Positions 8,329-27,607 of a stretch of 64,000 nucleotides of DNA are shown piece by piece. The notes beneath the pieces are model-generated. The model did no database searches. It was not told where the DNA came from and was given only the letters and a program-made list of their open reading frames with translations. Every line of letters begins with the position of its first letter. Within the stretch, counting starts at the first letter, position 1. Source of the DNA: an uncultured Bacilli bacterium (GTDB taxonomy: Bacteria; Bacillota_I; Bacilli_A; RF39; UBA660); NCBI GenBank assembly GCA_910587065.1, contig CAJUMA010000003.1, positions 92,602 to 156,601 of the forward strand. The letters are read 5' to 3'. The position numbers and the translations under genes are program-made.

Positions 8329-9555
8329 ATGAAAAAAATGCTAGAAAACAAAATTGTGCAAATAGGAATTACAGCATTCTTTGTCATAGCGGCATGTATA
8401 TTATTTGGTTTTTGTTTATTTCATGTGAGTTATATTTTTGGTTTTCTAAAAACCTTAGTCCGTATATTAATGCCACTAATATATGGTTTAGTTCTTGCTT
8501 ATATTATGCATCCTTTAGTAAATCTTTTTGAACATAAAGTATTTAACAAAATAACCAAAAATACAACTAAAAGAAATTTAAGTATATTTTGTTCTTTTAT
8601 GATTATTGTTGGTATTTTAGTTACTCTAATTAGTTTCATAATTCCTCAATTACTTTTGAGTATTCAATCTATTATCATTAATGCTCCAGTCTATTTTAAT
8701 GATTTAGGAGAATGGTTAAAAAATACTTTTACAAATTCGGAAATGGAATCTAGCCTAATTGATAATTATAAAATAATAAGTGAATACTTAACTACAGCCT
8801 TAAATAATGTTGTGTTACCGATTGCTAATGGAGCATTGTCAAAACTAAGTAGTGGTATATTTGGTATAATATCGTTTATCTTTAATTTTGCTATCGGACT
8901 TGTTTTTGCTATTTATATACTAGCTAATACAAAGACTTTCAGTGCTGGTATTAGAAAGAACTTATATTCAATCTTTGATGTTAACAAAGTAAACGGCTTT
9001 ATTGATGAAGTACAACATATTAATCATGTTTTTGGACAATTTATGATAGGCAAGATATGTGATTCAGGTACAGTTGGATTATGTACATTATTATTCCTTA
9101 TAATATTTAAATATCCTTACCCATTACTTATAGCAGTAATTATCTGTCTTACTGATTTAATTCCTTATTTTGGACCATATATTGGATCTGTTCCTTCCGT
9201 TTTACTTATTCTACTAGTAGACCCAGTTAAAGCAGTAACATTTATTTTATTCATGGTAATTTTACAACAAATTGATGCAAATTTAATTACTCCAAGAATT
9301 CAAAAGCAAGCTACTGGATTACCATCTTTTTGGGTATTATTTGCCATTACTTTATTTGGTGGACTTTTTGGAATAATAGGAATGTTAATAGGCGTTCCAT
9401 GTTTCACGATTATTTATGAATTATTTAATGAATTTACTGATAAGCGATTAAAAAAGAAAAATTTACCAATGGAAACAGAGTACTATACTAAAGTAGATAT
9501 GGTTGAAGAACGTGTTGTTACGGCTAAACTAAATAAAAAGAATCTTGGAAAATAG
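8329..9555 (+). CDS. AI-2E family transporter (UPF0118/PerM-like)
   Basis: About 8 TM helices. Conserved block LTDLIPYFGPYIGSVPSVLLIL is typical of AI-2E family proteins. RBS TAGGTGA. Confidence 0.7.
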   Translation: MKKMLENKIVQIGITAFFVIAACILFGFCLFHVSYIFGFLKTLVRILMPLIYGLVLAYIMHPLVNLFEHKVFNKITKNTTKRNLSIFCSFMIIVGILVTLISFIIPQLLLSIQSIIINAPVYFNDLGEWLKNTFTNSEMESSLIDNYKIISEYLTTALNNVVLPIANGALSKLSSGIFGIISFIFNFAIGLVFAIYILANTKTFSAGIRKNLYSIFDVNKVNGFIDEVQHINHVFGQFMIGKICDSGTVGLCTLLFLIIFKYPYPLLIAVIICLTDLIPYFGPYIGSVPSVLLILLVDPVKAVTFILFMVILQQIDANLITPRIQKQATGLPSFWVLFAITLFGGLFGIIGMLIGVPCFTIIYELFNEFTDKRLKKKNLPMETEYYTKVDMVEERVVTAKLNKKNLGK

Positions 9556-18176: not shown

Positions 18177-18209
18177 TTATTTAATTAAAAATTAAGAGTG
18201 GTGAGAAAT

Positions 18210-19343
18210 ATGTTTAAATATATATTGCAAATACTTTCAATTATATTAACAATTTCTCTTTTATTCTTTAACGTTTATATTGCTAAATCAATAGATTTTA
18301 TGTTTACTTTTTTAGTACTACTAGGAATGCTTCTAGTAAGCATTTTCTTGTTTGGCTATAGAAAAGTAGATAAAAGAGATTTTAAATATAAAGTTATACT
18401 TGTAGCAGGGTTAGCATTCTTGCTACAAAGCGTACTGTACTTAATTGGAACAAAGGTAGGATATACAGCAAATTACAGTTCAATGTTCAAAACCTATGTT
18501 GAAAAGAGAATTATCTTACTAGTGTTTCTTACAGTAATAGCAAGAGAAATCATACGTTATCTAGTAGTAAATATAAATACAGGTAAGAAATGGCAAAAGT
18601 ATGTAGTTCAAATATTATTAATATTAATGTGTGTGTTAGTAGATTTGTCTATATCTCCTAAGATATATACATTTACATCATTCTCATTAGTTTATGAATT
18701 TCTTGCATTATTTTTTATACCAAGTGTTGCAAAAAATATCTTACTAAATTATTTGAGTAATATTGGTGGATATGTATTAACATTCATATACATATTAATA
18801 ATGGATTTATATATTTACTTTTTATCAATCAAACCTGATTTAAATATGTTACTAGAGGCAGTTATTTTATTAGTTTTTCCATACGTTGTTTATAACTACG
18901 TTAACAAATTAAATAATGGAAGAATTATAGTAAAAAAAAGAGAAAGAAAAAAAGAAAACAAACTAGTCACAATACTTTCGGCAATTATATTTGGAATACT
19001 TGTATGTTTAGTATCAAGAGAATTCAAATATTCGATGATAGGTATAGGTTCTGAATCGATGACAGGAACTATAAATAAAGGTGATGCAATCATCTACAGA
19101 AGATATGAGAAAAACGAAAATATCAAGGATAAAGTAATTGTGTTTAGAAGAAATAATGTTATGATAGTCCATCGTGTCATAAAGGTTTATCCGCTCGATG
19201 GAGAAGCTGTCTATCAGACAAAAGGAGATAATAATGAATCTCAAGATAACTGGTTGGTTGAAGATAAGGATATTATCGGGGTTGTAGAAAAGAGAATACC
19301 ATTAATAGCTTGGCCATCCGTTTTACTAGGAGAAATATTTTAG
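18210..19343 (+). CDS. polytopic membrane domain fused to SipW-type (archaeal/ER-type S26) signal peptidase
   Basis: C-terminal ~120 aa: catalytic Ser region IGSESMTGTINKGD, the HRV motif (MIVHRVIKV), and GDNN. N-terminal ~260 aa has about 8 predicted TM helices with no recognisable family. ATG 18210 with an upstream RBS. Confidence 0.6.
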   Translation: MFKYILQILSIILTISLLFFNVYIAKSIDFMFTFLVLLGMLLVSIFLFGYRKVDKRDFKYKVILVAGLAFLLQSVLYLIGTKVGYTANYSSMFKTYVEKRIILLVFLTVIAREIIRYLVVNINTGKKWQKYVVQILLILMCVLVDLSISPKIYTFTSFSLVYEFLALFFIPSVAKNILLNYLSNIGGYVLTFIYILIMDLYIYFLSIKPDLNMLLEAVILLVFPYVVYNYVNKLNNGRIIVKKRERKKENKLVTILSAIIFGILVCLVSREFKYSMIGIGSESMTGTINKGDAIIYRRYEKNENIKDKVIVFRRNNVMIVHRVIKVYPLDGEAVYQTKGDNNESQDNWLVEDKDIIGVVEKRIPLIAWPSVLLGEIF

Positions 19344-19361
19344 ATTGAGAGTGATGTAAAG

Positions 19362-20447
19362 ATGGAAAAAGTAGAATTACCAATATTAAGAGGGAATAAT
19401 AGTAGAAAGTCAATACCATTGACTGTTACTGTAGGATTAATTATACTAATAGTTTTATTATTGATAACAAGTTTATCTTTAACTTTTAAGAAAACTTATA
19501 AAATTAATTACAGTGATTCATCGGCCTTAGATTATAAGGTTTATCTTAAGAACAATCCATTTTTCCCAACAAAATATTTAGAGAAAGATAAACAATATAT
19601 ATCTTCAATAATTGATTATGTTGATGCAGACTTCTCATATAAATTCTCAAGTGAAGATGATATTGACATAGATTATGAGTACTATATTTTAGCAACATTA
19701 AACGTTTCTAATACTGATGGAAAAATAATCTATGATAAAAAAGAATATTTACAAAGTAGTAAAAAAGTTACAGCTGAAAATAATTCTTTAAGTGTTAATG
19801 AAAATGTCAAAATTGATTATGACAAATACAATAAGATGGCTAAAAGTTTCATAGATGAATATGGACTTACTGCTAATGCTAACTTGGTAGTAAGCTTAAT
19901 GGTTGATGTTAGAGGAAAGAATTCTCATTTCGATAAAACAATATCTGATAATGGTGTAATTACACTAACTATACCACTAACTACTAAAACAGTTGATATA
20001 TCAATGGACTATGATTTATCGAATAACAAAAATGCAACTCTTCAACAAAGAGAAGCAATTATAAATAATAAAGCATTATTTACTGCTGGAATAATATTTA
20101 TTATAATTGATATACTAGCCATAATTGCTCTTGTAATATATATAATAATTACAAGAGACGAAAAGGAAAATTATCGTGTTACTCTAAATAAGATTTTAAG
20201 AGAGAACGAAAGATATATAAGTGAAACAGTTATAACCGAAAGAGTAGAAGATATGTTGAAAACTCGTTCACTAAGAATTGAAGTGGTTAAGAGCTTTAAT
20301 GCCTTAATGGATATAAGAGATAGTTTAAATAAACCAATTTTATATCATGAAGAAAAACTTGGTGAAGAAGCTGTATTCTATATCATAAGTGAACATATAG
20401 GTTACATTTATGTTATGAGTGTAGAAGATTTTAAGAAAAAGAAATAA
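19362..20447 (+). CDS. bitopic/two-TM membrane protein of unknown function (accessory to the SipW-like gene)
   Basis: TM1 near the N-terminus (LTVTVGLIILIVLLLITSL). Extracytoplasmic Tyr/Asp/Lys-rich region of ~190 aa. TM2 (ALFTAGIIFIIIDILAIIALVIYIII). Cytoplasmic tail of ~105 aa. Confidence 0.5.
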   Translation: MEKVELPILRGNNSRKSIPLTVTVGLIILIVLLLITSLSLTFKKTYKINYSDSSALDYKVYLKNNPFFPTKYLEKDKQYISSIIDYVDADFSYKFSSEDDIDIDYEYYILATLNVSNTDGKIIYDKKEYLQSSKKVTAENNSLSVNENVKIDYDKYNKMAKSFIDEYGLTANANLVVSLMVDVRGKNSHFDKTISDNGVITLTIPLTTKTVDISMDYDLSNNKNATLQQREAIINNKALFTAGIIFIIIDILAIIALVIYIIITRDEKENYRVTLNKILRENERYISETVITERVEDMLKTRSLRIEVVKSFNALMDIRDSLNKPILYHEEKLGEEAVFYIISEHIGYIYVMSVEDFKKKK

Positions 20448-20504
20448 TTATATTTCTTTTTTTTTTGTTTTTCTTTATAATAGAGATATGGATGAAGTGA
20501 TTAT

Positions 20505-21629
20505 ATGAGTAAAAGTCAAAATATAATAGATTATATAAAAAAATATGGCGAGTATTCTTTTGAGCTAGTTCCTTTTAATGAATTAGATAGTTTAATAATG
20601 TCTAGTCTTTCTTATGTCAGTTTTTCTTCTATTTTAAACAATGTAAGAGACAAAATTACTATTAAGGAAGCGGGCACAAAATTTTTTTCTATGCATACAA
20701 AAAAAGAACTTAAAGATAATGTTTTTTCTGTTAAAACAGGGATTAAAGTTTTCGCGTCTATTTATAAAACAAAAAGATTCCAAAATCTTATTATAACTAA
20801 ATATAAAAGGGTTTCTAATGAGGATAAACAATTCCAAGCTATTTGCATAAATATCAATAGTCGTTTAAGTTATCTATCCTTTGAAGGAACGGATGATTTA
20901 GTTAGTGGCTGGATTGAAGATGCAAAAATGAGCTATAGTTTCAAAGTCCCTGCTCAAAAAGAAGCTATTAAATATATAAATCATCATTTTAATCCTTTTT
21001 CAAATAGAAAGTACATTTTAGGAGGACACTCAAAGGGAGGAAATTTAGCTTTAGTTGCTGCAATGTATGCAAGAAATATTCTTAAATCAAAGATTAAAGA
21101 AATTTATGTGTTGGATGCTCCAGGTTTAAGAGAAAAAGAAATAAATTCACCAGAGTTTAAATCAATAGAAGATAGAGTCAAAAGAATCATAATTAATTAT
21201 TCTATAGTAGGAGTTCTCTTTAAGAATACGGAGAAAGTTAAAATTGTTGAATCATTAAAAAAAGGTCCGATGGCACATAACCTTATAAATTGGCGAATTG
21301 ATGATAAAGAATTTTCTTATACTAAGTTATCCGCCTTCAGTCGTAATTTTAAAGAAAAAGTTGATAATTGGCTAAATAGCTACAATGATTATGAAAAGCA
21401 AGAGTTTGTTAATAATTTAAAAGAATTGTTTAAAAGATCTGAAATAGTTTCCTTAATTGATATAAAGAATAATAAAATAAGAAAACTACATAAGCTAATA
21501 AAAGAAAGTAAAAAGTTAGATTCAAAGAGCAAAGACATTGTAAATACACTTATAAAGTTTCTTCTTGAGTTTATAAAAGAGGAATCATCAAGCTTGATTA
21601 GTAGTAAAATTCCTAATTTGAAACATTAA
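20505..21629 (+). CDS. DUF2974 (Mbeg1-like) alpha/beta-hydrolase-like protein
   Basis: GGHSKGGNLALVAAMYA block, which matches the characteristic G-H-S-x-G region of the DUF2974 family. Confidence 0.55.
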   Translation: MSKSQNIIDYIKKYGEYSFELVPFNELDSLIMSSLSYVSFSSILNNVRDKITIKEAGTKFFSMHTKKELKDNVFSVKTGIKVFASIYKTKRFQNLIITKYKRVSNEDKQFQAICININSRLSYLSFEGTDDLVSGWIEDAKMSYSFKVPAQKEAIKYINHHFNPFSNRKYILGGHSKGGNLALVAAMYARNILKSKIKEIYVLDAPGLREKEINSPEFKSIEDRVKRIIINYSIVGVLFKNTEKVKIVESLKKGPMAHNLINWRIDDKEFSYTKLSAFSRNFKEKVDNWLNSYNDYEKQEFVNNLKELFKRSEIVSLIDIKNNKIRKLHKLIKESKKLDSKSKDIVNTLIKFLLEFIKEESSSLISSKIPNLKH

Positions 21630-21711: not shown

Positions 21712-22236
21712 ATGGAATTTGAAACTAAGAATCTTGAAGTTAAAAAATTTATACCTGAATACATTTCTGTCATGTATGAAGCATGGGGAAAAGATAAAGA
21801 GGTAGGTAAGTACTTACCTGGCTTTAGAGTGGACTGGGATTTAGAAGGTTTTACAAACTATATTATTGGAACATATAAAGATGATTATTATGAAAGATTA
21901 ATTATTAAGGATAAAAAAACAAACAAAGTCATTGGTAATATATCTTTATATCAAGAGGATAGTAGAAGTAAGTCTGTAAATATTTGGCTTATTAAAGACT
22001 ATTGGGGAAAAGGTTTTGGAACAGAAGCTTTAACAAAAACAGTTGAAGAATTAAAAAAGACTAATTTAGGAAGCATATATGCAACGTGTGATGGAAGAAA
22101 TGAAGCTGCTAAAATCATTCTTGAAAGAGCAGGTTTTGAACTAATTGATACAATACCAAATTATCGTGAAGATATAGATGGTAATATAGGAGACGAACTT
22201 TTATATGAAATTGAACTTATAAGAGTTCAATACTAA
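21712..22236 (+). CDS. GNAT family N-acetyltransferase
   Basis: Acetyl-CoA binding motif region WGKGFGTEALTKTVEELKK. Typical ~170 aa size. Confidence 0.65.
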   Translation: MEFETKNLEVKKFIPEYISVMYEAWGKDKEVGKYLPGFRVDWDLEGFTNYIIGTYKDDYYERLIIKDKKTNKVIGNISLYQEDSRSKSVNIWLIKDYWGKGFGTEALTKTVEELKKTNLGSIYATCDGRNEAAKIILERAGFELIDTIPNYREDIDGNIGDELLYEIELIRVQY

Positions 22237-22311
22237 ATATTAATATTTAAAGTGGTAAAGTGAAAATTTATCTCTTTTTTCATTTAGACAAAAGAAGACA
22301 AAAAACTCCTA

Positions 22312-22340
22312 TTGCTTTTAAGAAAAAGTAAGATTATTAT
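22312..22340 (+). promoter_or_regulatory. sigma-A type promoter (TTGCTT-17-TATTAT) driving a noncoding unit
   Basis: -35 ttgctt at 22312-22317, 17-nt spacer, -10 tattat at 22335-22340. Confidence 0.4.
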
Positions 22341-22346
22341 AGTAAA

Positions 22347-22640
22347 TTGTGAAGCAAGGTAAAGATGCGTGTCACTCAATTTATATCTTTTAGCGAGTTT
22401 ATTCAGGGTGCTCGGTAATAAAAGTGGGGATATTTACGAGTAAAGAAGATTTGGTGATAATCATTGAATTGCTATTGAAAATAATTTTGGTGTTAGATAT
22501 AAAAGGCTGACATTAAAAAAGCATCTTTATTAACTGAATAAAGATGCAATGCACTAAGGTGTTGCGTACTAGCCAAAAGAGACTTCTGCTTCACACTCAA
22601 TGTAATTATAATAAAACTTGAAATTATCTTCAAGTTTTTT
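22347..22640 (+). ncRNA. candidate ~290-nt structured noncoding RNA (unclassified)
   Basis: Promoter-to-terminator unit. The terminator is aaaa-cttgaa-attatc-ttcaag-tttttt at 22613-22640. Internal 9-bp hairpin gcatcttta/taaagatgc at 22521-22547. No ORF longer than 17 codons. The whole 456-nt region 22237-22692 is noncoding in a gene-dense genome. Confidence 0.3.
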
Positions 22641-22692
22641 CTTTACATAATAATTTTCTATATTATATAATTTATTTAAAAGAAGGAACATA

Positions 22693-23046
22693 ATGAATAT
22701 TTTAGAAAGATTTTCAAAGTCTAAATTTAGAAGTAGTTTTCATTTAAAAAAACAAGATATCGAATATGTTGATAAAGTTGGCATAGAAAAAATAAAATCT
22801 CATGCTTATGATTTTATAACTAAACGCTTAGCTCCAGAAATTTTAGAAAATGATGGACATCAAACTCCCTTTAAGGGACATCCTGTCTTTATTGCTGAAC
22901 ATGCAACAGCTACTTGTTGTCGTGGATGTTTAGAAAAGTGGCATAAAATTGATAAAAATCATGAGTTAACTTCCAAAGAAATAGAATATATTGTAAATAT
23001 AATTATGAAATGGATTGAAAAAGAATATGGAAAAAGTAAGATGTAA
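22693..23046 (+). CDS. DUF4186-like small protein
   Basis: Conserved cysteine cluster ATCCRGCLEKWH typical of DUF4186. Located upstream of and overlapping the tag start. Confidence 0.45.
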   Translation: MNILERFSKSKFRSSFHLKKQDIEYVDKVGIEKIKSHAYDFITKRLAPEILENDGHQTPFKGHPVFIAEHATATCCRGCLEKWHKIDKNHELTSKEIEYIVNIIMKWIEKEYGKSKM

Positions 23047-23575
23047 ATGGTGTAATTTAAAGAACAAAATATATGCTGATTATCATGATTCTGAATGGGG
23101 AGTAGAGAGCCATGATGATGCTTATCTTTTTGAATTACTCTTACTTGAATCATTTCAGGCTGGTTTATCTTGGGAGTGTATTTTAAATAAACGAGAAAAC
23201 TTTCGCATCTCTTTTTCTAATTTTGATTATAGCGTAATCGCCTTATATGATGAAAAGAAAATTGAGGAGTTAATGAAAGATTCTGGTATTATTAGAAATA
23301 GACTTAAAATTAAAGCGGCCATTAATAATGCTAAAATATTTATGGAGATACAAAAGAAGTATGGTTCTTTTGATAAATATATTTGGTCTTTTACAAATAA
23401 TAAAATAATTAAGGGTAACGGAACTAGTACAACGTCTTCTCTTTCTGATAAAATATCACTTGATTTAAGTAGTAAGGGAATGAAGTTTGTTGGAAGCACG
23501 ATAGTTTATTCTTATCTTCAAGCAATTGGAGTAATTAATGATCATGAGAGTATTTGTTTTTTAAATAAGTCTTGA
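23027..23575 (+). CDS. tag: DNA-3-methyladenine glycosylase I
   Basis: N-terminal RCKWC...YHDSEWGV zinc-binding motif. FELLLLESFQAGLSWECIL helix-hairpin-helix block typical of Tag. ATG 23027 preferred over the upstream TTG in the ORF track. Confidence 0.8.
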   Translation: MEKVRCKWCNLKNKIYADYHDSEWGVESHDDAYLFELLLLESFQAGLSWECILNKRENFRISFSNFDYSVIALYDEKKIEELMKDSGIIRNRLKIKAAINNAKIFMEIQKKYGSFDKYIWSFTNNKIIKGNGTSTTSSLSDKISLDLSSKGMKFVGSTIVYSYLQAIGVINDHESICFLNKS

Positions 23576-23621: not shown

Positions 23622-24298
23622 ATGACATACAATAGAAAAAATTTTATAGATAGTTGTAATTTTATAACACCATTTGAATTTGAATTATTGCCAGAGAATG
23701 TTCAATTAGCTTATTTAGATACAATCTATTCTTACAGTGTAAAAAGGGCACGTGAAAAAGGAAAAAATGGTGATGTTTTTAATTGCCGTGGTTATGTGCA
23801 TCCAGACTATGAAATGTATTTTGAAAAAATGGGTGTACAGTAACAAATTATGATTTTGGATTTGAAGAATACGAAGTTAAATGTGTAGACCCTAATAAAG
23901 GACATAAAGTAACAGAAGAAGATAAGAATAAGTTGGATTATTATCTAAGTATATTAGGGGAAGCAAAAGCCAATATTTTTGAAGGTTATTTAAATCGCAC
24001 ATTTTATGCAGGAACTAAAAACAATAGTGACATTGAAGTAGAGTTTACTGATGAAGAAACTACTAATCTGTTTAAGAAATTTACTAATAGAAGTTTTATG
24101 AGTATCGATGAACTTACTAATGAAGAGAAAAAAATGCTTATGGAAGCAGAACTTTCTTTAGTTATTGAAGATATTCGAAATGGTGAAACTCCTGAATGTG
24201 TTAACATACTTCCAAAAGGTTATAAAATAGTTTTAAATGAGGAAATTGAAGCTTTAAATCTTGCTTTACCTGAGGGTAAGCGTCTTAAGAGAGTATAA
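23622..24298 (+). pseudogene. one gene split by a frameshift at an A6 run (23824-23829), or two adjacent small genes
   Basis: ORF 23622-23843 ends just after gaaaaaatggg. Frame +2 is open without stops from 23825 and continues through the annotated 23933-24298 ORF, which has only a TTG start. One additional A would fuse them into one ~230-aa protein. Confidence 0.35.
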
Positions 24299-24339: not shown

Positions 24340-24563
24340 TGGTTATAAAAAACAAGGAACAAGAGGAGTAAAATACTCTACATTATTAGGGATGAAAGAT
24401 CATTGACTGAAAGTCTTTCTTAATGAAAGTATTTGAAGGTAGCTTGGGAGTTGTTAATCTGAAATAATTAGTAAGATTAAACGAGTCACTCACGTTAAGA
24501 GTAAAGAGCACAAATTAAGGTGGTACCACGAGTCTTCGTCCTTTGGATGAGGACTCTTTTTGT
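24340..24563 (+). promoter_or_regulatory. T-box riboswitch leader, controlling the valS operon
   Basis: Canonical T-box sequence AAATTAAGGTGGTACCACGAG at 24512-24533. Followed by an 11-bp terminator (gagtcttcgtc/gatgaggactc) and TTTTT at 24530-24563. Stem I region carries an AGAGGAG-like element and a GUC triplet (aaagtctttc), a candidate Val specifier. Confidence 0.75.
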
Positions 24564-24578
24564 ATATTAGGAGGATTT

Positions 24579-25088
24579 ATGAATACAGTGGTTCAAGATA
24601 AAAATATAGCATTTGTAATTAATCAGGAAAATAAAATACTAGTATTTATTAGAGAAACAAGAGATTCGGTAATTATGTCTTTTCCCGAAATAATGGCGGA
24701 TAGTAAAATACCTTTTTTAAATGATGAACATTTAGAAGAATATGAATATATAAATTCGTATTCAAAAGAAAAAAATGATTGTAAAATTGTTAATGGTCAT
24801 TTAATCAAATTCCCAAAACGAGTGCGCAAACACTTTTATGCTTTAAGATATGATTTAATGCCAGAAGATATTGAAGAAATAATGAATTTAACTCATAAGA
24901 TAGGCGCGGAACCATACTTTCTTGATATTGAAGAGATTAAAGACCTTTTTACCAAAAATTATTACTTAAGTAATTCCATTGATACAGCAAATTTAATAGA
25001 AAAAAAACTAAAACCAATTTTAGAACTTGAAAAGAAAATGCAACCGTTGCTTGTACAAAAACAAAAGATTAGAAAGGAAAGATATTAA
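24579..25088 (+). CDS. hypothetical protein (169 aa), first gene of the T-box-controlled valS operon
   Basis: ATG 24579 with RBS TTAGGAGGA. The ORF-track start at 24543 falls inside the terminator stem and is rejected. Its stop overlaps the valS ATG by 1 nt. Confidence 0.55.
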   Translation: MNTVVQDKNIAFVINQENKILVFIRETRDSVIMSFPEIMADSKIPFLNDEHLEEYEYINSYSKEKNDCKIVNGHLIKFPKRVRKHFYALRYDLMPEDIEEIMNLTHKIGAEPYFLDIEEIKDLFTKNYYLSNSIDTANLIEKKLKPILELEKKMQPLLVQKQKIRKERY

Positions 25089-27607
25089 TGTTAGATACTA
25101 AATATGATAATAAAAAAATAGAAGAAGGAAAATACGAAAAGTGGAAAAATGCTGGTTACTTTAATTCAGGAGATAAAACGAAAAATCCTTATTGTATAGT
25201 GATACCACCTCCAAATGTAACAGGAAAACTTCACTTAGGTCATGCTTTAGATGTTTCAATCCAAGATATAATAATTCGTTATAAAAGATTACAAGGATTT
25301 GATTGTCTTTGGCTACCGGGAATGGATCATGCTGCTATTGCAACGGAAGCAAAAGTTGTAAAAAGATTAAAAGACCAAGGAATTGATAAATACGAATATG
25401 GAAGGGGAAAATTCTTAGAAGCTTGTTGGGATTGGACACGTGAATATGGTGGTAACATTAGAGAGCAATGGGCAAAAATGGGTATATCAGTTGATTATAA
25501 TAAAGAAAGATTTACTCTCGATGAAGGACTTAATAAAGCTGTAACAAAAGTTTTTGTTGATTATTATAATGAGGGAATAATATATCGTGGCGAAAGAATC
25601 ATAAATTGGGATCCCGAAGCCCAAACTGCTCTTTCTAATGAAGAAGTTATTTATAAGGATGTTGAAGGAGCTTTCTATCATTTAAAGTATTATATTGAGG
25701 GAACAAGTGAATATTTGGATGTTGCGACAACAAGGCCAGAGACTTTATTTGGTGATACTGCTGTTGCTGTTAATGAAAATGATGAAAGATATAAAAAGTA
25801 TATTGGTAAGAACGTAATATTACCAATTGTTAACAAACCAATCCCAATAATTGCTGATGAGCATGCGGATCCTGAATTTGGAACAGGTGTTGTTAAAATT
25901 ACACCAGCACATGATCCAAATGACTTTGAAGTAGGAAATAGACATAATTTAGAAAGAATAGTTGTCATGAAGCCTGATGCTACAATGAACGCTAATGCAT
26001 TAAAATATGAAGGTATGAGTCGTGAAGAATGTAGGGAAGCTTTACTTGAAGATTTAAAACATGAAGATTTGCTTATAAATATTGAACCAATGACACATTC
26101 CGTAGGTCACTCAGAACGTACAGGTGTTATGGTTGAGCCATACTTATCAAAACAATGGTTTGTTCGCATGGGGACTTTAGCTAAAAGAGTATTAGAGACC
26201 CAAAAGATAAGTGCTGAAAAAGTAAATTTTGTACCAGACAAGTTTGAAAAAACTTTAACCCATTGGATGGAAGAATGCTTTGATTGGTGTATCTCTCGTC
26301 AATTATGGTGGGGACATAGAATTCCTGCTTGGTATAAGGGTGAAGAAGTTTATGTAGGGGAGAGTGCTCCAACTGGTGATGGCTGGGTACAAGATGAGGA
26401 TGTTTTAGATACATGGTTCTCAAGTGCACTTTGGCCTTTTAGTACACTTGGTTGGCCTGAGTCTACAGAAGACATGGAAAGATACTATCCAAACGATTGC
26501 TTAGTTACTGCTTATGATATTATTTTCTTTTGGGTTGCTAGAATGGTTTTCCAAGCAGAACATATCACTGGTTCGCGTCCTTTTAAAGACTGTGTAATTC
26601 ATGGACTTATTCGTGATAAGCAAGGAAGAAAAATGTCTAAGTCTCTTGGTAACGGTGTAGATCCAATGGATATGATTGAAAAATATGGGGTAGATGCCTT
26701 AAGATACTATCTAGCAACTGATGTGGCACCTGGAACAGATCTTCGTTTTGATGAAGAAAAACTTTCTAGTACTTGGAATTATATAAATAAAATTTGGAAT
26801 GCCTCTCGCTTTGTTTTACTAAATATTGAAGACTTAAATGAAGCTCGACTAGAAGACTTAAGCGATGAAGATAAATGGATACTAACTAAATATGAACGTG
26901 TAATAAAATCTACAATTAAACATATGGATAAATACGAATTTAATTTAGTAGGTACTGAAACATACAATTTTATCTATGATGATTTTTGTAGTAACTATAT
27001 TGAATTTGCTAAATATAACTTAGATAAGCAGTCTACTAAATCAACACTATTTTGGGTGCTATCTGGAATAATCCAAATATTACATCCATTCATGCCATTT
27101 GTAACAGAAGAAATTTATCAAATGTTACCAATTAAAACGCATGATTCCATAATGATAAGTGATTATCCAATTTATGATAAGTCTTTAATGTTTGAAGCAG
27201 AAGAAAAATTAGTCGATGAAAAAATTGAATTCATAAAAAATTTCCGTAATGTCAAATCTGAAAACAGTATTCCAAAAGATGCATTAGTTAAAATAAATAC
27301 AGAGGATGAAATAATTATCAAAATGTTAAAATTATCAGATGTATTAACAGAAGAAGATTTAAGTATTAATTCTTATGAAGTTAAAACACAAAAATATCAA
27401 GCAACAATTTATTTTGAAAAACAAGTAACGGAAGAAGAGTTAAAGTTAAAAGAAAAACAAATAAATGACTTAGAATCATCAATTGAAAGAAGAAAAAAAC
27501 TTTTAGCTAATGAAAATTATGTTGCTAAGGCACCAGCGGAGTTAGTTGAAAAAGAAAGAAAAACTTTAGAATCCGAAGAAGAGCAATTAGCTCTTTTAAA
27601 GAAATAA
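25088..27607 (+). CDS. valS: valine--tRNA ligase
   Basis: Class I HIGH region (PPPNVTGKLHLGHA). KMSKS present as KMSKSLGN. Editing and anticodon-binding regions. C-terminal coiled coil typical of ValS. Confidence 0.9.
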   Translation: MLDTKYDNKKIEEGKYEKWKNAGYFNSGDKTKNPYCIVIPPPNVTGKLHLGHALDVSIQDIIIRYKRLQGFDCLWLPGMDHAAIATEAKVVKRLKDQGIDKYEYGRGKFLEACWDWTREYGGNIREQWAKMGISVDYNKERFTLDEGLNKAVTKVFVDYYNEGIIYRGERIINWDPEAQTALSNEEVIYKDVEGAFYHLKYYIEGTSEYLDVATTRPETLFGDTAVAVNENDERYKKYIGKNVILPIVNKPIPIIADEHADPEFGTGVVKITPAHDPNDFEVGNRHNLERIVVMKPDATMNANALKYEGMSREECREALLEDLKHEDLLINIEPMTHSVGHSERTGVMVEPYLSKQWFVRMGTLAKRVLETQKISAEKVNFVPDKFEKTLTHWMEECFDWCISRQLWWGHRIPAWYKGEEVYVGESAPTGDGWVQDEDVLDTWFSSALWPFSTLGWPESTEDMERYYPNDCLVTAYDIIFFWVARMVFQAEHITGSRPFKDCVIHGLIRDKQGRKMSKSLGNGVDPMDMIEKYGVDALRYYLATDVAPGTDLRFDEEKLSSTWNYINKIWNASRFVLLNIEDLNEARLEDLSDEDKWILTKYERVIKSTIKHMDKYEFNLVGTETYNFIYDDFCSNYIEFAKYNLDKQSTKSTLFWVLSGIIQILHPFMPFVTEEIYQMLPIKTHDSIMISDYPIYDKSLMFEAEEKLVDEKIEFIKNFRNVKSENSIPKDALVKINTEDEIIIKMLKLSDVLTEEDLSINSYEVKTQKYQATIYFEKQVTEEELKLKEKQINDLESSIERRKKLLANENYVAKAPAELVEKERKTLESEEEQLALLKK

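What the first reader, a model, noticed from the sequence alone, without database searches (positions are those of the whole stretch)
22237..22692. 456-nt noncoding gap containing a promoter-to-terminator unit: candidate ~290-nt structured sRNA of unknown class
In an otherwise tightly packed region, a TTGCTT-17-TATTAT promoter (22312-22340) and an intrinsic terminator (22613-22640) bracket ~290 nt with no ORF over 17 codons. The region has several stable hairpins, for example a 9-bp hairpin at 22521-22547, and a GGGGA...ACGAG segment. I could not match it by eye to 6S, tmRNA, RNase P, SRP RNA, or known riboswitch cores. It is not a leader for the downstream DUF4186-tag genes, because its terminator precedes a further 50 nt and a separate RBS.
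Basis: seen in the sequence. Interest (0 to 1): 0.5.

Follow-up and report, generated by a model that had tools for sequence, protein, structure and literature searches.

The report
Decayed type I toxin-antitoxin-like RNA pair

Summary
The gap, promoter, terminator and hairpins are real, and no Rfam family matches. But this is not a free-standing sRNA of unknown class. Twelve homologous copies were found in the closest genome relative and in metagenome contigs, in several genomic contexts and sometimes two per contig. They show a conserved unit with these parts:
- A + strand transcript of about 300 nt.
- A Shine-Dalgarno (SD) site and a 23-32 codon, very hydrophobic ORF.
- An anti-SD in the 5'UTR.
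- A two-helix 5'-3' long-distance interaction with compensatory changes.
- On the minus strand, a conserved extended -10 promoter and an invariant hairpin plus T6-7 terminator. Together they define an antisense RNA of about 83 nt (window 22597->22515) lying inside the mRNA's 3'UTR.

This is the anatomy of a type I toxin-antitoxin locus, closest in layout to bsrG/SR4. The peptides and RNAs match no Pfam, NCBIfam or Rfam family.

In the window copy the ORF (22436-22510) starts with ACG instead of ATG, the SD is degraded and the anti-SD pairing is gone. The ACG is present in all five other assemblies of this species, each from a different sample. The mRNA helices and the antisense gene remain intact. 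Toxicity and expression are inferred, not shown.

The parts
22250..22280 (+). Imperfect AU-rich hairpin (AAGTGGTAAA / TTTATCTCTT) followed by a T-run. Probably the terminator of the GNAT gene and the left edge of the conserved unit.
   Evidence: Sequence. Other subfamily-A copies carry a clean terminator (GAGAGGATTTTTATCCTCTTTTTT) at the same place. Low confidence in the window.
22284..22311 (+). Conserved box upstream of the toxin promoter (TTAGACAAAAGAAGACAAAAAACTCCTA). Function unknown.
   Evidence: Alignments. 'GACAAA' is kept in most copies of both subfamilies.
22312..22340 (+). Promoter of the toxin-type mRNA: TTGCTT-17-TATTAT. Predicted start at about 22347.
   Evidence: Sequence. The -10 hexamer sits 7 nt before the conserved 5' end (T)GTGAAGCA in all subfamily-A copies, and an extended -10 sits at the same distance in subfamily B.
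22347..22645 (+). Predicted toxin-type mRNA of about 299 nt: 5'UTR, ORF remnant and a long 3'UTR.
   Evidence: Family HMM hit on window 22301-22670, E = 8.8e-85. Fold z = -3.9.
22348..22358 (+). P1 5' strand of the 5'-3' long-distance interaction. Pairs with 22585-22595.
   Evidence: RNAalifold and pair counts, helix 1: 91.9% of cells paired and 3 pairs with changes on both sides. Per-copy duplexes of 9-14 bp in 9 of 9 copies.
22585..22595 (+). P1 3' strand. It lies inside the target of the antisense RNA.
22364..22375 (+). P2' 5' strand (GATGCGTGTCAC). Pairs with 22559-22570.
   Evidence: Helix 2: 90.7% of cells paired and 5 pairs with changes on both sides. Strain SNPs 22365 A>G and 22567 T>C both restore Watson-Crick pairs.
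22559..22570 (+). P2' 3' strand (GTGTTGCGTACT). It lies inside the target of the antisense RNA.
22420..22431 (+). Degraded Shine-Dalgarno region. AAAAGTGGGGAT replaces the AAAAGGAGTGGT found in sister copies.
   Evidence: Predicted SD unpaired probability is 0.90, and the anti-SD duplex is no better than shuffles (140 of 300).
22436..22510 (+). Remnant of the small hydrophobic peptide ORF: ACG in place of ATG, 24 codons, TGA stop. Product: (T)SKEDLVIIIELLLKIILVLDIKG.
   Evidence: ACG is present in all 5 other assemblies of the same species. Homologous ORFs are intact in 9 other copies.
22521..22547 (-). Invariant 11-bp hairpin (GCATCTTTATT / AATAAAGATGC) with the conserved loop motif UUCAG on the minus strand. 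With T6 (22520-22515) it forms the terminator of the antisense RNA.
   Evidence: Terminator scan. Invariant in all copies, each with T6-7 on the minus strand.
22515..22597 (-). Predicted antisense (antitoxin-type) sRNA of about 83 nt. It is fully complementary to the mRNA 3'UTR and ends 5 nt short of the ORF stop codon.
   Evidence: Bounded by a conserved promoter and terminator. Expression not tested.
22605..22633 (-). Promoter of the antisense RNA: TTGAAG-17-TATAAT. Its -35 lies inside the + strand terminator hairpin.
   Evidence: 10 of 12 matches. A -10 hexamer (8 copies TATAAT; also CATTAT, TATACT, TATATT) is present in all 12 copies, and 10 of 12 have the TGn extension, about 7 nt upstream of AGTG(T/A)GAAGCAG.
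22613..22644 (+). Terminator of the + strand mRNA: AAAACTTGAA / TTCAAGTTTT followed by a T-run.
   Evidence: I6. The hairpin is kept in subfamily A, but the U-run is absent in L045 and L048b.
22642..22671 (+). Separate promoter of DUF4186-tag (TTTACA-18-TATAAT). Not part of the module; it marks the module's right limit.
   Evidence: 11 of 12 matches. Conserved in L001.

Best explanation

The + strand RNA (about 22347-22645) is the homologue of an mRNA for a 23-32 aa hydrophobic, membrane-type peptide. Its 5' end pairs with its 3'UTR through two covarying helices (P1 and P2'). In most copies the SD is masked by an anti-SD that begins in the last nucleotides of the P2' 5' strand.

A convergent antisense RNA of about 83 nt (22597->22515) is made from its own extended -10 promoter and ends at the invariant hairpin plus U-run. 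It is perfectly complementary to the stretch of 3'UTR that the mRNA's own 5' end docks on.

Inferred mechanism, by analogy with bsrG/SR4 and txpA/RatA:
- The antisense RNA probably first contacts the mRNA through the conserved UUCAG/CUGAA loops.
- It then zips into a duplex of about 80 bp that is a substrate for RNase III.
- It displaces the mRNA's 5' strand. In some copies the freed strand completes the anti-SD helix and shuts off translation.

In this species the toxin side looks disabled: ATG has become ACG, the SD has changed from GGAG to UGGG, the anti-SD pairing is lost, and a Val has become Asp in the hydrophobic core. The RNA helices and the antisense gene are retained.

Shown: homology, ORF, SD and anti-SD conservation, helix covariation, promoter and terminator conservation, multi-copy distribution, and the ACG in every sampled assembly of the species. 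Inferred: transcription of both RNAs, peptide toxicity, and the RNase III and translation-block steps.
For: 1. Homologues. A family HMM finds 12 copies: the syntenic L001 plus L037, L041, L042, L044, L045, L048 (two copies), L049, L050 and L053. They lie in other contexts, such as pepF, ffh and DUF285 genes, with two copies per contig in L048 and L045 and on contig ERZ777011.130.

2. ORF. SD plus ATG or GTG plus 23-32 codons is found in 9 copies, and indels are multiples of 3. The peptides are very hydrophobic (GRAVY 1.1-2.3). The chance of an open frame in shuffled sequence is 0.035-0.14 per lineage.

3. Long-distance interaction. RNAalifold predicts P1 and P2' without guidance. 93.3% of cells are paired, against 34-53% when the partners are slid. 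Eight pairs change on both sides. The covariation score is 0.239 against 0.156 in shuffles (0 of 500 reach it). There are 19 G-U cells against 6 A-C cells, which points to a + strand RNA. Two within-species SNPs restore pairs in P2'.

4. Anti-SD. L001 has UAUCACCUCU/AGAGGUGAUA, L037 has UACCACUUCU/GGAAGUGGUA and L042 has UAUUACCUUU/AAAGGUGAUA. These are in the same register when anchored independently on the P2' end and on the start codon, with three compensatory positions.

5. Antisense gene. The (TGn)TATAAT promoter and the hairpin plus T6-7 are conserved in all copies on the minus strand only.

6. Literature. These are the published hallmarks of type I TA loci: an mRNA of 150-400 nt, a peptide of 20-60 aa, SD/anti-SD pairing, a 5'-3' long-distance interaction and an antisense RNA on the 3' side in Gram-positives (PMC8594479, PMC6733600). 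SR4 binds the 3' region of bsrG, extends SD sequestration and triggers RNase III cleavage (PMC3834814, PMC6562991).

7. Simulated antisense binding. Masking the 3'UTR lowers predicted SD accessibility in 4 of 9 copies, for example 0.46->0.09 and 0.74->0.23.
Against: - There are no expression data for either RNA and no toxicity test.
- The peptides match no known toxin family, and the RNAs match no Rfam antitoxin family.
- The SD switch is predicted in only 4 of 9 copies. In L001 and L049 the SD is masked in both states, and in L050 and L042 it barely changes.
- The + strand terminator lacks a U-run in some copies.
- Near-identical sister copies differ by non-synonymous changes, so purifying selection on the peptide is not demonstrated.
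- The window copy lacks a canonical start, so here the 'toxin' label applies to ancestry rather than present function. Weak initiation at the in-frame GTG 22424 cannot be excluded.
- Only 9 distinct sequences support the covariation.
Confidence: 0.75

Rival explanations
1. It is a small membrane-protein gene under cis-antisense control, not a toxin-antitoxin pair. The peptide has a benign role, for example as a small subunit or regulator of a membrane complex.
For: The ORF, SD and antisense features do not prove toxicity. The peptide has no similarity to any known toxin.
Against: Several features are typical of type I TA loci and unusual for housekeeping small proteins (PMC6733600, PMC8594479). 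These are heavy translational silencing by an anti-SD plus a 5'-3' long-distance interaction, multi-copy spread into unrelated contexts, truncated and decayed copies (L053, L048 2200-2271, and the window's ACG), and a dedicated antisense RNA.
Confidence: 0.12
2. One reading: an independent structured noncoding RNA of about 290 nt from the + strand. On this view the ORF in homologues is incidental.
For: The window copy has no ATG and a degraded SD, yet keeps P1, P2' and the hairpin. The fold z-score is -3.9. In this species the RNA may now act only as an RNA.
Against: The SD and start codon sit at correct spacing, the frame stays open and the peptide stays hydrophobic across diverged copies, and indels are in multiples of three. 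The anti-SD covaries with the SD, which only makes sense if ribosome binding matters.
Confidence: 0.08
3. It is a miniature mobile element (MITE-like repeat) whose terminal inverted repeats are the P1 arms.
For: It is multi-copy, about 250-300 bp long, has inverted repeats TGTGAAGCA/TGCTTCACA and occurs in variable contexts.
Against: Homology extends beyond both P1 arms, into the promoters, the upstream box and the flanking terminators. The arms keep complementarity through G-U wobbles and compensatory changes, which is an RNA-level constraint and not a DNA-level one. No transposase is associated, and no target-site duplications were seen in the alignments of the flanks, though no dedicated search for them was made.
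Confidence: 0.03
4. It is a cis-regulatory leader or riboswitch of the DUF4186-tag operon.
For: It is syntenic upstream of DUF4186 in the window and in L001.
Against: The other 33 DUF4186 loci lack it. Other copies sit next to pepF, ffh and DUF285 genes. DUF4186 has its own conserved promoter downstream of the element's terminator.
Confidence: 0.02

Closest known systems
bsrG/SR4 of Bacillus subtilis, with its relatives txpA/RatA, bsrE/SR5 and yonT/SR6
   Same: A convergent antisense RNA pairs with the 3' part of a small hydrophobic toxin mRNA. The SD is partly sequestered in the mRNA. In bsrG/SR4, antitoxin binding at the 3' end remodels the 5' region so that SD masking grows from 4 to 8 bp and RNase III cleaves the duplex, and first contact is made through the antitoxin's terminator loop (PMC3834814, PMC6562991). 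Here the anti-SD overlaps the 5' strand that the antisense RNA would displace, and the terminator loop motif UUCAG is invariant.
   Different: There is no sequence similarity: no Pfam, NCBIfam or Rfam hit. The peptide is shorter (23-32 aa; BsrG is 38 aa, from my own recollection). According to T1TAdb the antisense RNAs of the BsrE/G/H and TxpA families also overlap the ORF (PMC8594479). Here the antisense RNA lies wholly inside the 3'UTR, 5 nt past the stop codon. The mRNA has a covarying 5'-3' closing helix, which none of the papers I read describes for bsrG.
hok/Sok and aapA/IsoA of Gram-negative bacteria
   Same: The full-length toxin mRNA is locked by a 5'-3' long-distance interaction and by anti-SD elements. 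The loci are multi-copy on chromosomes (PMC6733600).
   Different: In those systems the antisense RNA targets the 5' region or the ORF, the 3' partner of the long-distance interaction is itself the anti-SD, and 3' trimming activates the mRNA. Here the antisense RNA targets the 3' docking site itself. There is no sequence relationship and the host phylum differs.
Fst/RNAII (par of pAD1) and SprA1/SprA1as
   Same: They are found in Gram-positive bacteria, have convergent genes, a small hydrophobic toxin, and an antisense RNA on the 3' side that does not overlap the ORF (PMC8594479).
   Different: In those systems the interaction happens outside the overlap, through 5' direct repeats. Here the predicted interaction is the overlap itself. 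There is no hit to any Pfam, NCBIfam or Rfam model; I did not check which Fst or RNAII models those libraries hold. From memory, the Fst signature is an A-P-x-x-x-G core, and the peptides lack it.

Membership tests
Type I toxin-antitoxin systems (class) | A short mRNA (150-400 nt) encoding a small (20-60 aa) hydrophobic peptide with an SD | tested here: met
   Met in 9 homologous copies: 23-32 aa, GRAVY 1.1-2.3. In the window copy the frame is open but ATG has become ACG and the SD is degraded.
Type I toxin-antitoxin systems (class) | A cis-encoded antisense RNA with its own promoter and terminator, complementary to the toxin mRNA | tested here: met
   Met at sequence level only. The minus-strand (TGn)TATAAT promoter and the hairpin plus T6-7 are conserved in all copies. 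Transcription was not tested.
Type I toxin-antitoxin systems (class) | A translationally inert primary transcript, through SD/anti-SD pairing and/or a 5'-3' long-distance interaction | tested here: met
   The long-distance interaction covaries. Anti-SD duplexes reach -14 to -23 kcal/mol in 7 of the 8 other distinct copies (L050: -11.9), with compensatory changes. The pairing is lost in the window copy.
Type I toxin-antitoxin systems (class) | The peptide is toxic when expressed, and the antisense RNA neutralises it | not testable with these tools
   This needs expression experiments.
Known type I toxin peptide families as represented in Pfam and NCBIfam (Fst/Ldr, TxpA/BsrG, Hok, Ibs, TisB and others) | A significant match to the family profile | tested here: not met
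   No hit has E<0.2 in Pfam or E<1.6 in NCBIfam for 7 peptides.
Rfam RNA families (T1TAdb reports that Rfam holds antitoxin RNAs of 13 type I TA families) | A covariance-model match at or near the gathering score | tested here: not met
   In the window region no hit has E<0.7. The four homologue loci gave only a T-box.
T1TAdb and Fozo 2010 predicted families | Sequence match to catalogued loci | not testable with these tools
   The database is not available here. The literature search found no description for this lineage.
Riboswitch or leader of DUF4186-tag | Constant association with the regulated gene, and no separate promoter in between | tested here: not met

The most novel reading that the evidence does not exclude
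This is a new type I TA family of uncultured low-GC gut Bacilli with an unusual three-way logic. The mRNA's 5'UTR and the antitoxin sRNA are mimics of each other: they carry the same three motifs in the same order (GUGAAGCAG, a GAUGC...CAC-type strand, and UUUAUUCAG). They compete for one docking site in the 3'UTR. The antitoxin would therefore act by evicting the mRNA's own 5' end, which then closes the SD. In this species the peptide has been switched off and the RNA pair survives, possibly reused as a purely RNA-level regulator.
Probability: 0.3. Interest if true: 0.6.

Novelty: new member of a known kind. Interest (0 to 1): 0.45.

Why it matters
Type I toxin-antitoxin systems are hard to find by computation. 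So far they are known from only a few phyla and about two dozen families (PMC8594479, PMC12390103). This locus gives a new, internally well-supported family from uncultured gut Bacilli, defined by comparative RNA evidence: a covarying 5'-3' closing helix, a covarying anti-SD, and a conserved antisense promoter and terminator. The family includes a natural series of intact, truncated and start-codon-dead copies that could be used to study how such modules decay. It also shows how a peptide-coding module can look like a "structured sRNA" when one decayed copy is read alone.

Tried and rejected
- Rfam at gathering score and at E<=10 on the region, and at E<=0.5 on four homologue loci: nothing except T-boxes.
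- blastn in 'distant' mode against plasmids and phages: no match.
- IMG/VR pattern scan: only the bare hairpin turns up in unrelated contigs, not the family.
- My first idea for a second helix (5' AAAGAUGC pairing with the left arm of the hairpin) was replaced. RNAalifold's P2' (5' GAUGC...CAC with GUG...GCAUC downstream of the hairpin) leaves the hairpin intact and covaries.
- A possible third pairing (5'UTR UUUAUUCAG with the hairpin's CUGAAUAAA) gives duplexes of -6.6 to -16 kcal/mol. It could not be tested because the hairpin is invariant.
- The minus-strand ORFs 22569-22691 (40 aa, called as a gene in L065) and 22493-22633 (46 aa) were dismissed. They run across the terminator and promoter, and the first also extends beyond the edge of family homology at about 22640.
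- Strain-level SNP density has too little power to show constraint: 4 variable sites in 300 nt.
- Genetic code 4 was excluded, because long ORFs are intact under table 11.

Full report
**1. Observation**

The gap 22237-22692 is real. It lies between a GNAT acetyltransferase gene (21712-22236) and a DUF4186-tag gene pair (22693-23046 and 23015-23575). The genome is very AT-rich, about 27% G+C.

Promoter-like hexamers are at chance density here: 14 found against 13.6 expected. The only terminator the scan reports within the gap is on the minus strand. It is the 11-bp hairpin 22547-22521 followed by T6.

Rfam gives nothing for the region at gathering score, and nothing with E<0.7. Both strands fold better than shuffles, with z of about -3.9 each. 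Folding alone therefore does not identify the strand.

**2. Homologues change the picture**

A scan of species-representative genomes for DUF4186 relatives gave 35 loci. Only the closest one has a homologous intergenic element. That is L001, which shares 75% protein identity and the same GNAT-gap-DUF4186-tag order.

A metagenome scan with the most conserved 22 bases (the hairpin) returned 18 loci. A family HMM then recognised 12 copies in all. They fall into two subfamilies:
- Subfamily A: the window, L044, L045, L041, L048 (two copies) and L050.
- Subfamily B: L001, L049, L037, L042 and L053.

The copies sit next to unrelated genes, including pepF, ffh, DUF285/LRR proteins and unknowns. There can be two on one contig, and there are truncated copies. 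The element is therefore a self-contained, multi-copy unit and not a leader of DUF4186. DUF4186 keeps its own TTTACA-18-TATAAT promoter in both the window and L001.

**3. A small ORF**

The SD forms include AAAGGAG, AAAGAGGTGA and GGAAGTGG. The ORF ends just before the hairpin, except in L042, where a 1-nt deletion extends it into the hairpin. In L053 the 5'UTR is deleted, so a GTG start and the ORF remain without an SD. Examples:
- L044: MSKQGLLRIIELLLKIILVLVIKY
- L050: MNNRILLDIIVLLLLIILLFISEC
- L001: (V)INLKDLIMLIQTITILLLILFG
- L037: MIKCNIKDIIILILVIIIFYLIVFY
- L049: MTKKDFLIFGLYILIIILLYIIYKLIFILI

.

GRAVY values are 1.1-2.3. Length differences are multiples of three nucleotides. In shuffled sequence of the same composition such frames stay open only 3.5-14% of the time per lineage. 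The peptides hit no Pfam or NCBIfam family.

In the window the same frame (22436-22510) is open but begins with ACG. The SD reads AAAGTGGGGA, and a Val in the hydrophobic core has become Asp. Five other assemblies of the same species, each from a different sample, all carry ACG, so it is not an assembly error. An in-frame GTG at 22424 has no convincing SD, so weak translation cannot be excluded.

**4. RNA structure of the + strand transcript**

RNAalifold was run on nine distinct copies (alignment A1). Without guidance it predicts a closing structure made of two helices plus the local hairpin:
- P1: window 22348-22358 with 22585-22595.
- P2': window 22364-22375 with 22559-22570.

Counting pairs on that structure gives the following:
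- 93.3% of cells are paired, against 34-53% when the 3' partners are slid by 1-3 columns.
- Eight pairs have changes on both sides. Examples are U-A<->A-U and G-C<->A-U in P1, and A-U<->U-A and A-U<->C-G in P2'.
- The covariation score is 0.239, against 0.156 +/- 0.013 in shuffles. None of 500 shuffles reaches it.

The two helices contain 19 G-U cells and 6 A-C cells. They are therefore better paired on the + strand (189 against 176 of 207 cells). An alignment-free RNAduplex analysis finds P1 in all nine copies, always 34-41 nt after the hairpin. Within the window's own species, the SNPs 22365 A>G and 22567 T>C turn an A-C mismatch and a G-U wobble of P2' into G-C pairs.

**5. Anti-SD**

Immediately after, and overlapping, the 5' strand of P2' lies a sequence complementary to the SD:
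- L001: UAUCACCUCU / AGAGGUGAUA
- L037: UACCACUUCU / GGAAGUGGUA
- L042: UAUUACCUUU / AAAGGUGAUA
- L049: CUACCUU / AAGGUAG
- Subfamily A: CACUC(G)CUUUU / AAAAGGAGUG

.

In L001, L037 and L042 the register is the same when anchored independently on the end of P2' and on the start codon. Three positions change on both sides. Duplex energies are -14 to -23 kcal/mol, and 0-25 of 300 shuffles do as well. The exceptions are L050 (48 of 300) and the window (140 of 300), where the pairing is gone.

**6. The antisense gene**

Read on the minus strand, every copy has a -10 hexamer about 7 nt upstream of AGTG(T/A)GAAGCAG. It is TATAAT in 8 copies, and CATTAT, TATACT or TATATT in the others. Ten of the 12 copies also have the TGn extension. 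A TTGAAT or TTGCAT-type -35 is visible in most copies. The invariant hairpin follows, with T6-7 after it. On the + strand the hairpin is preceded by A6 and not followed by U's.

In the window this defines an RNA from about 22597 to about 22515 (83 nt). Its promoter is TTGAAG-17-TATAAT (22633-22605). Only the terminator hairpin is structurally conserved in this RNA. Its loop always carries UUCAG.

The antisense RNA lies entirely within the mRNA 3'UTR, 5 nt beyond the stop codon. It covers the 3' strands of both P1 and P2'. As a result its 5' half has the same sequence motifs, in the same order, as the mRNA 5'UTR: GUGAAGCAG, then the P2'-type strand, then UUUAUUCAG.

**7. Interpretation and mechanism**

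The following set of features matches the published hallmarks of type I toxin-antitoxin loci (PMC8594479, PMC6733600):
- a short mRNA for a hydrophobic peptide of 20-60 aa;
- a silent primary transcript, through an anti-SD and a 5'-3' long-distance interaction;
- a cis-antisense RNA on the 3' side;
- multiple chromosomal copies, including decayed ones.

The nearest mechanistic analogue is bsrG/SR4. There the antitoxin binds the 3' part of the mRNA, starting from its terminator loop. It extends SD sequestration from 4 to 8 bp and provokes RNase III cleavage (PMC3834814, PMC6562991).

I simulated antisense binding by forbidding pairing of the target stretch. The predicted SD accessibility then falls in four of nine copies: L044 0.46->0.09, L048a 0.44->0.14, L048b 0.37->0.23 and L037 0.74->0.23. 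In L001 and L049 the SD is masked in both states. In L050 and L042 it hardly changes. Duplex-triggered decay is therefore the safer inference, and the translational switch is a partial one. Transcription, toxicity and the RNase steps are all inferred.

**8. This copy**

In the window species the toxin side looks disabled: there is no ATG, the SD is degraded, and no anti-SD pairing remains. The predicted SD is 0.90 unpaired, which has little consequence without a start codon. P1, P2', the hairpin and the antisense promoter are intact. Strain-level polymorphism is too sparse to show constraint.

**9. Rivals**

- A benign small membrane protein under antisense control cannot be excluded without experiments.
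- A purely noncoding RNA is contradicted by the conservation of the SD, start codon, ORF and anti-SD.
- A MITE is contradicted by homology that extends beyond the inverted repeats and by RNA-type (G-U and compensatory) conservation.
- A DUF4186 leader is contradicted by the element's distribution and by the separate promoter.

**10. Novelty**

There is no match in Rfam, Pfam, NCBIfam, plasmids, phages or IMG/VR. The literature search found no description for this lineage. I file it as a new family within a known class. One feature may be unusual: the antisense RNA is embedded in the 3'UTR exactly on the docking site of the mRNA's own 5' end.

Noticed in passing
window 24346-24546 (+): T-box leader (RF00230, 105.9 bits) upstream of an unannotated ORF (24543-25088) and valS (25088-27607). 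The same arrangement is found in L001 (5688-5888).
   Followed up: no
window 23622-23843 and 23933-24298 (+): These two ORFs (73 and 121 aa, no Pfam hit) correspond to a single 225-aa gene in strains L063-L066. The gene is split in the window and in L067, which is probably a strain-specific pseudogene. L067 (GCA_948736825.1, CAPXWM010000004.1) is identical to the window over 5.35 kb.
   Followed up: partly
window 22284-22311; same position in L044, L045, L048, L050 and subfamily B copies: A conserved box lies upstream of the toxin promoter (TTAGACAAAA...CTCCTA). 'GACAAA' is kept in most copies of both subfamilies. Some copies contain an AGAC-N13-GTCT inverted repeat. It could be an operator or an UP element, but it remains unexplained.
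   Followed up: partly
L048 1797-4853; L045 1-3293: Two element copies bracket a variable cassette between pepF and ffh. The cassette holds unknown 166-aa and 393-aa proteins and a DUF285/BspA-type LRR protein. A partial copy holding only the promoter and the 5' end sits at L048 2200-2271. This suggests recombination between copies.
   Followed up: partly
L053 about 9000-9330 (-): This copy has lost the whole 5'UTR (P1, P2', anti-SD and SD), so the promoter box abuts the ORF. L042 has a 1-nt deletion that extends the ORF into the hairpin (32 aa). These are further examples of decay.
   Followed up: partly
L036, L038-L040, L043, L046, L047, L051, L052; IMG/VR loci L054-L062: The same hairpin, a 24-26-nt stretch matching ATCTTTATT..CTGAATAAAGATG, occurs in unrelated metagenome and viral contigs without the rest of the element. 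It may be a widely reused terminator or a coincidence of AT-rich sequence.
   Followed up: partly
window 18198-21629 (+): Upstream gene cluster: a weak signal-peptidase S26-like protein, a DUF5305 protein and an Mbeg1-like protein. The last two are syntenic with L001 and L063-L067.
   Followed up: no
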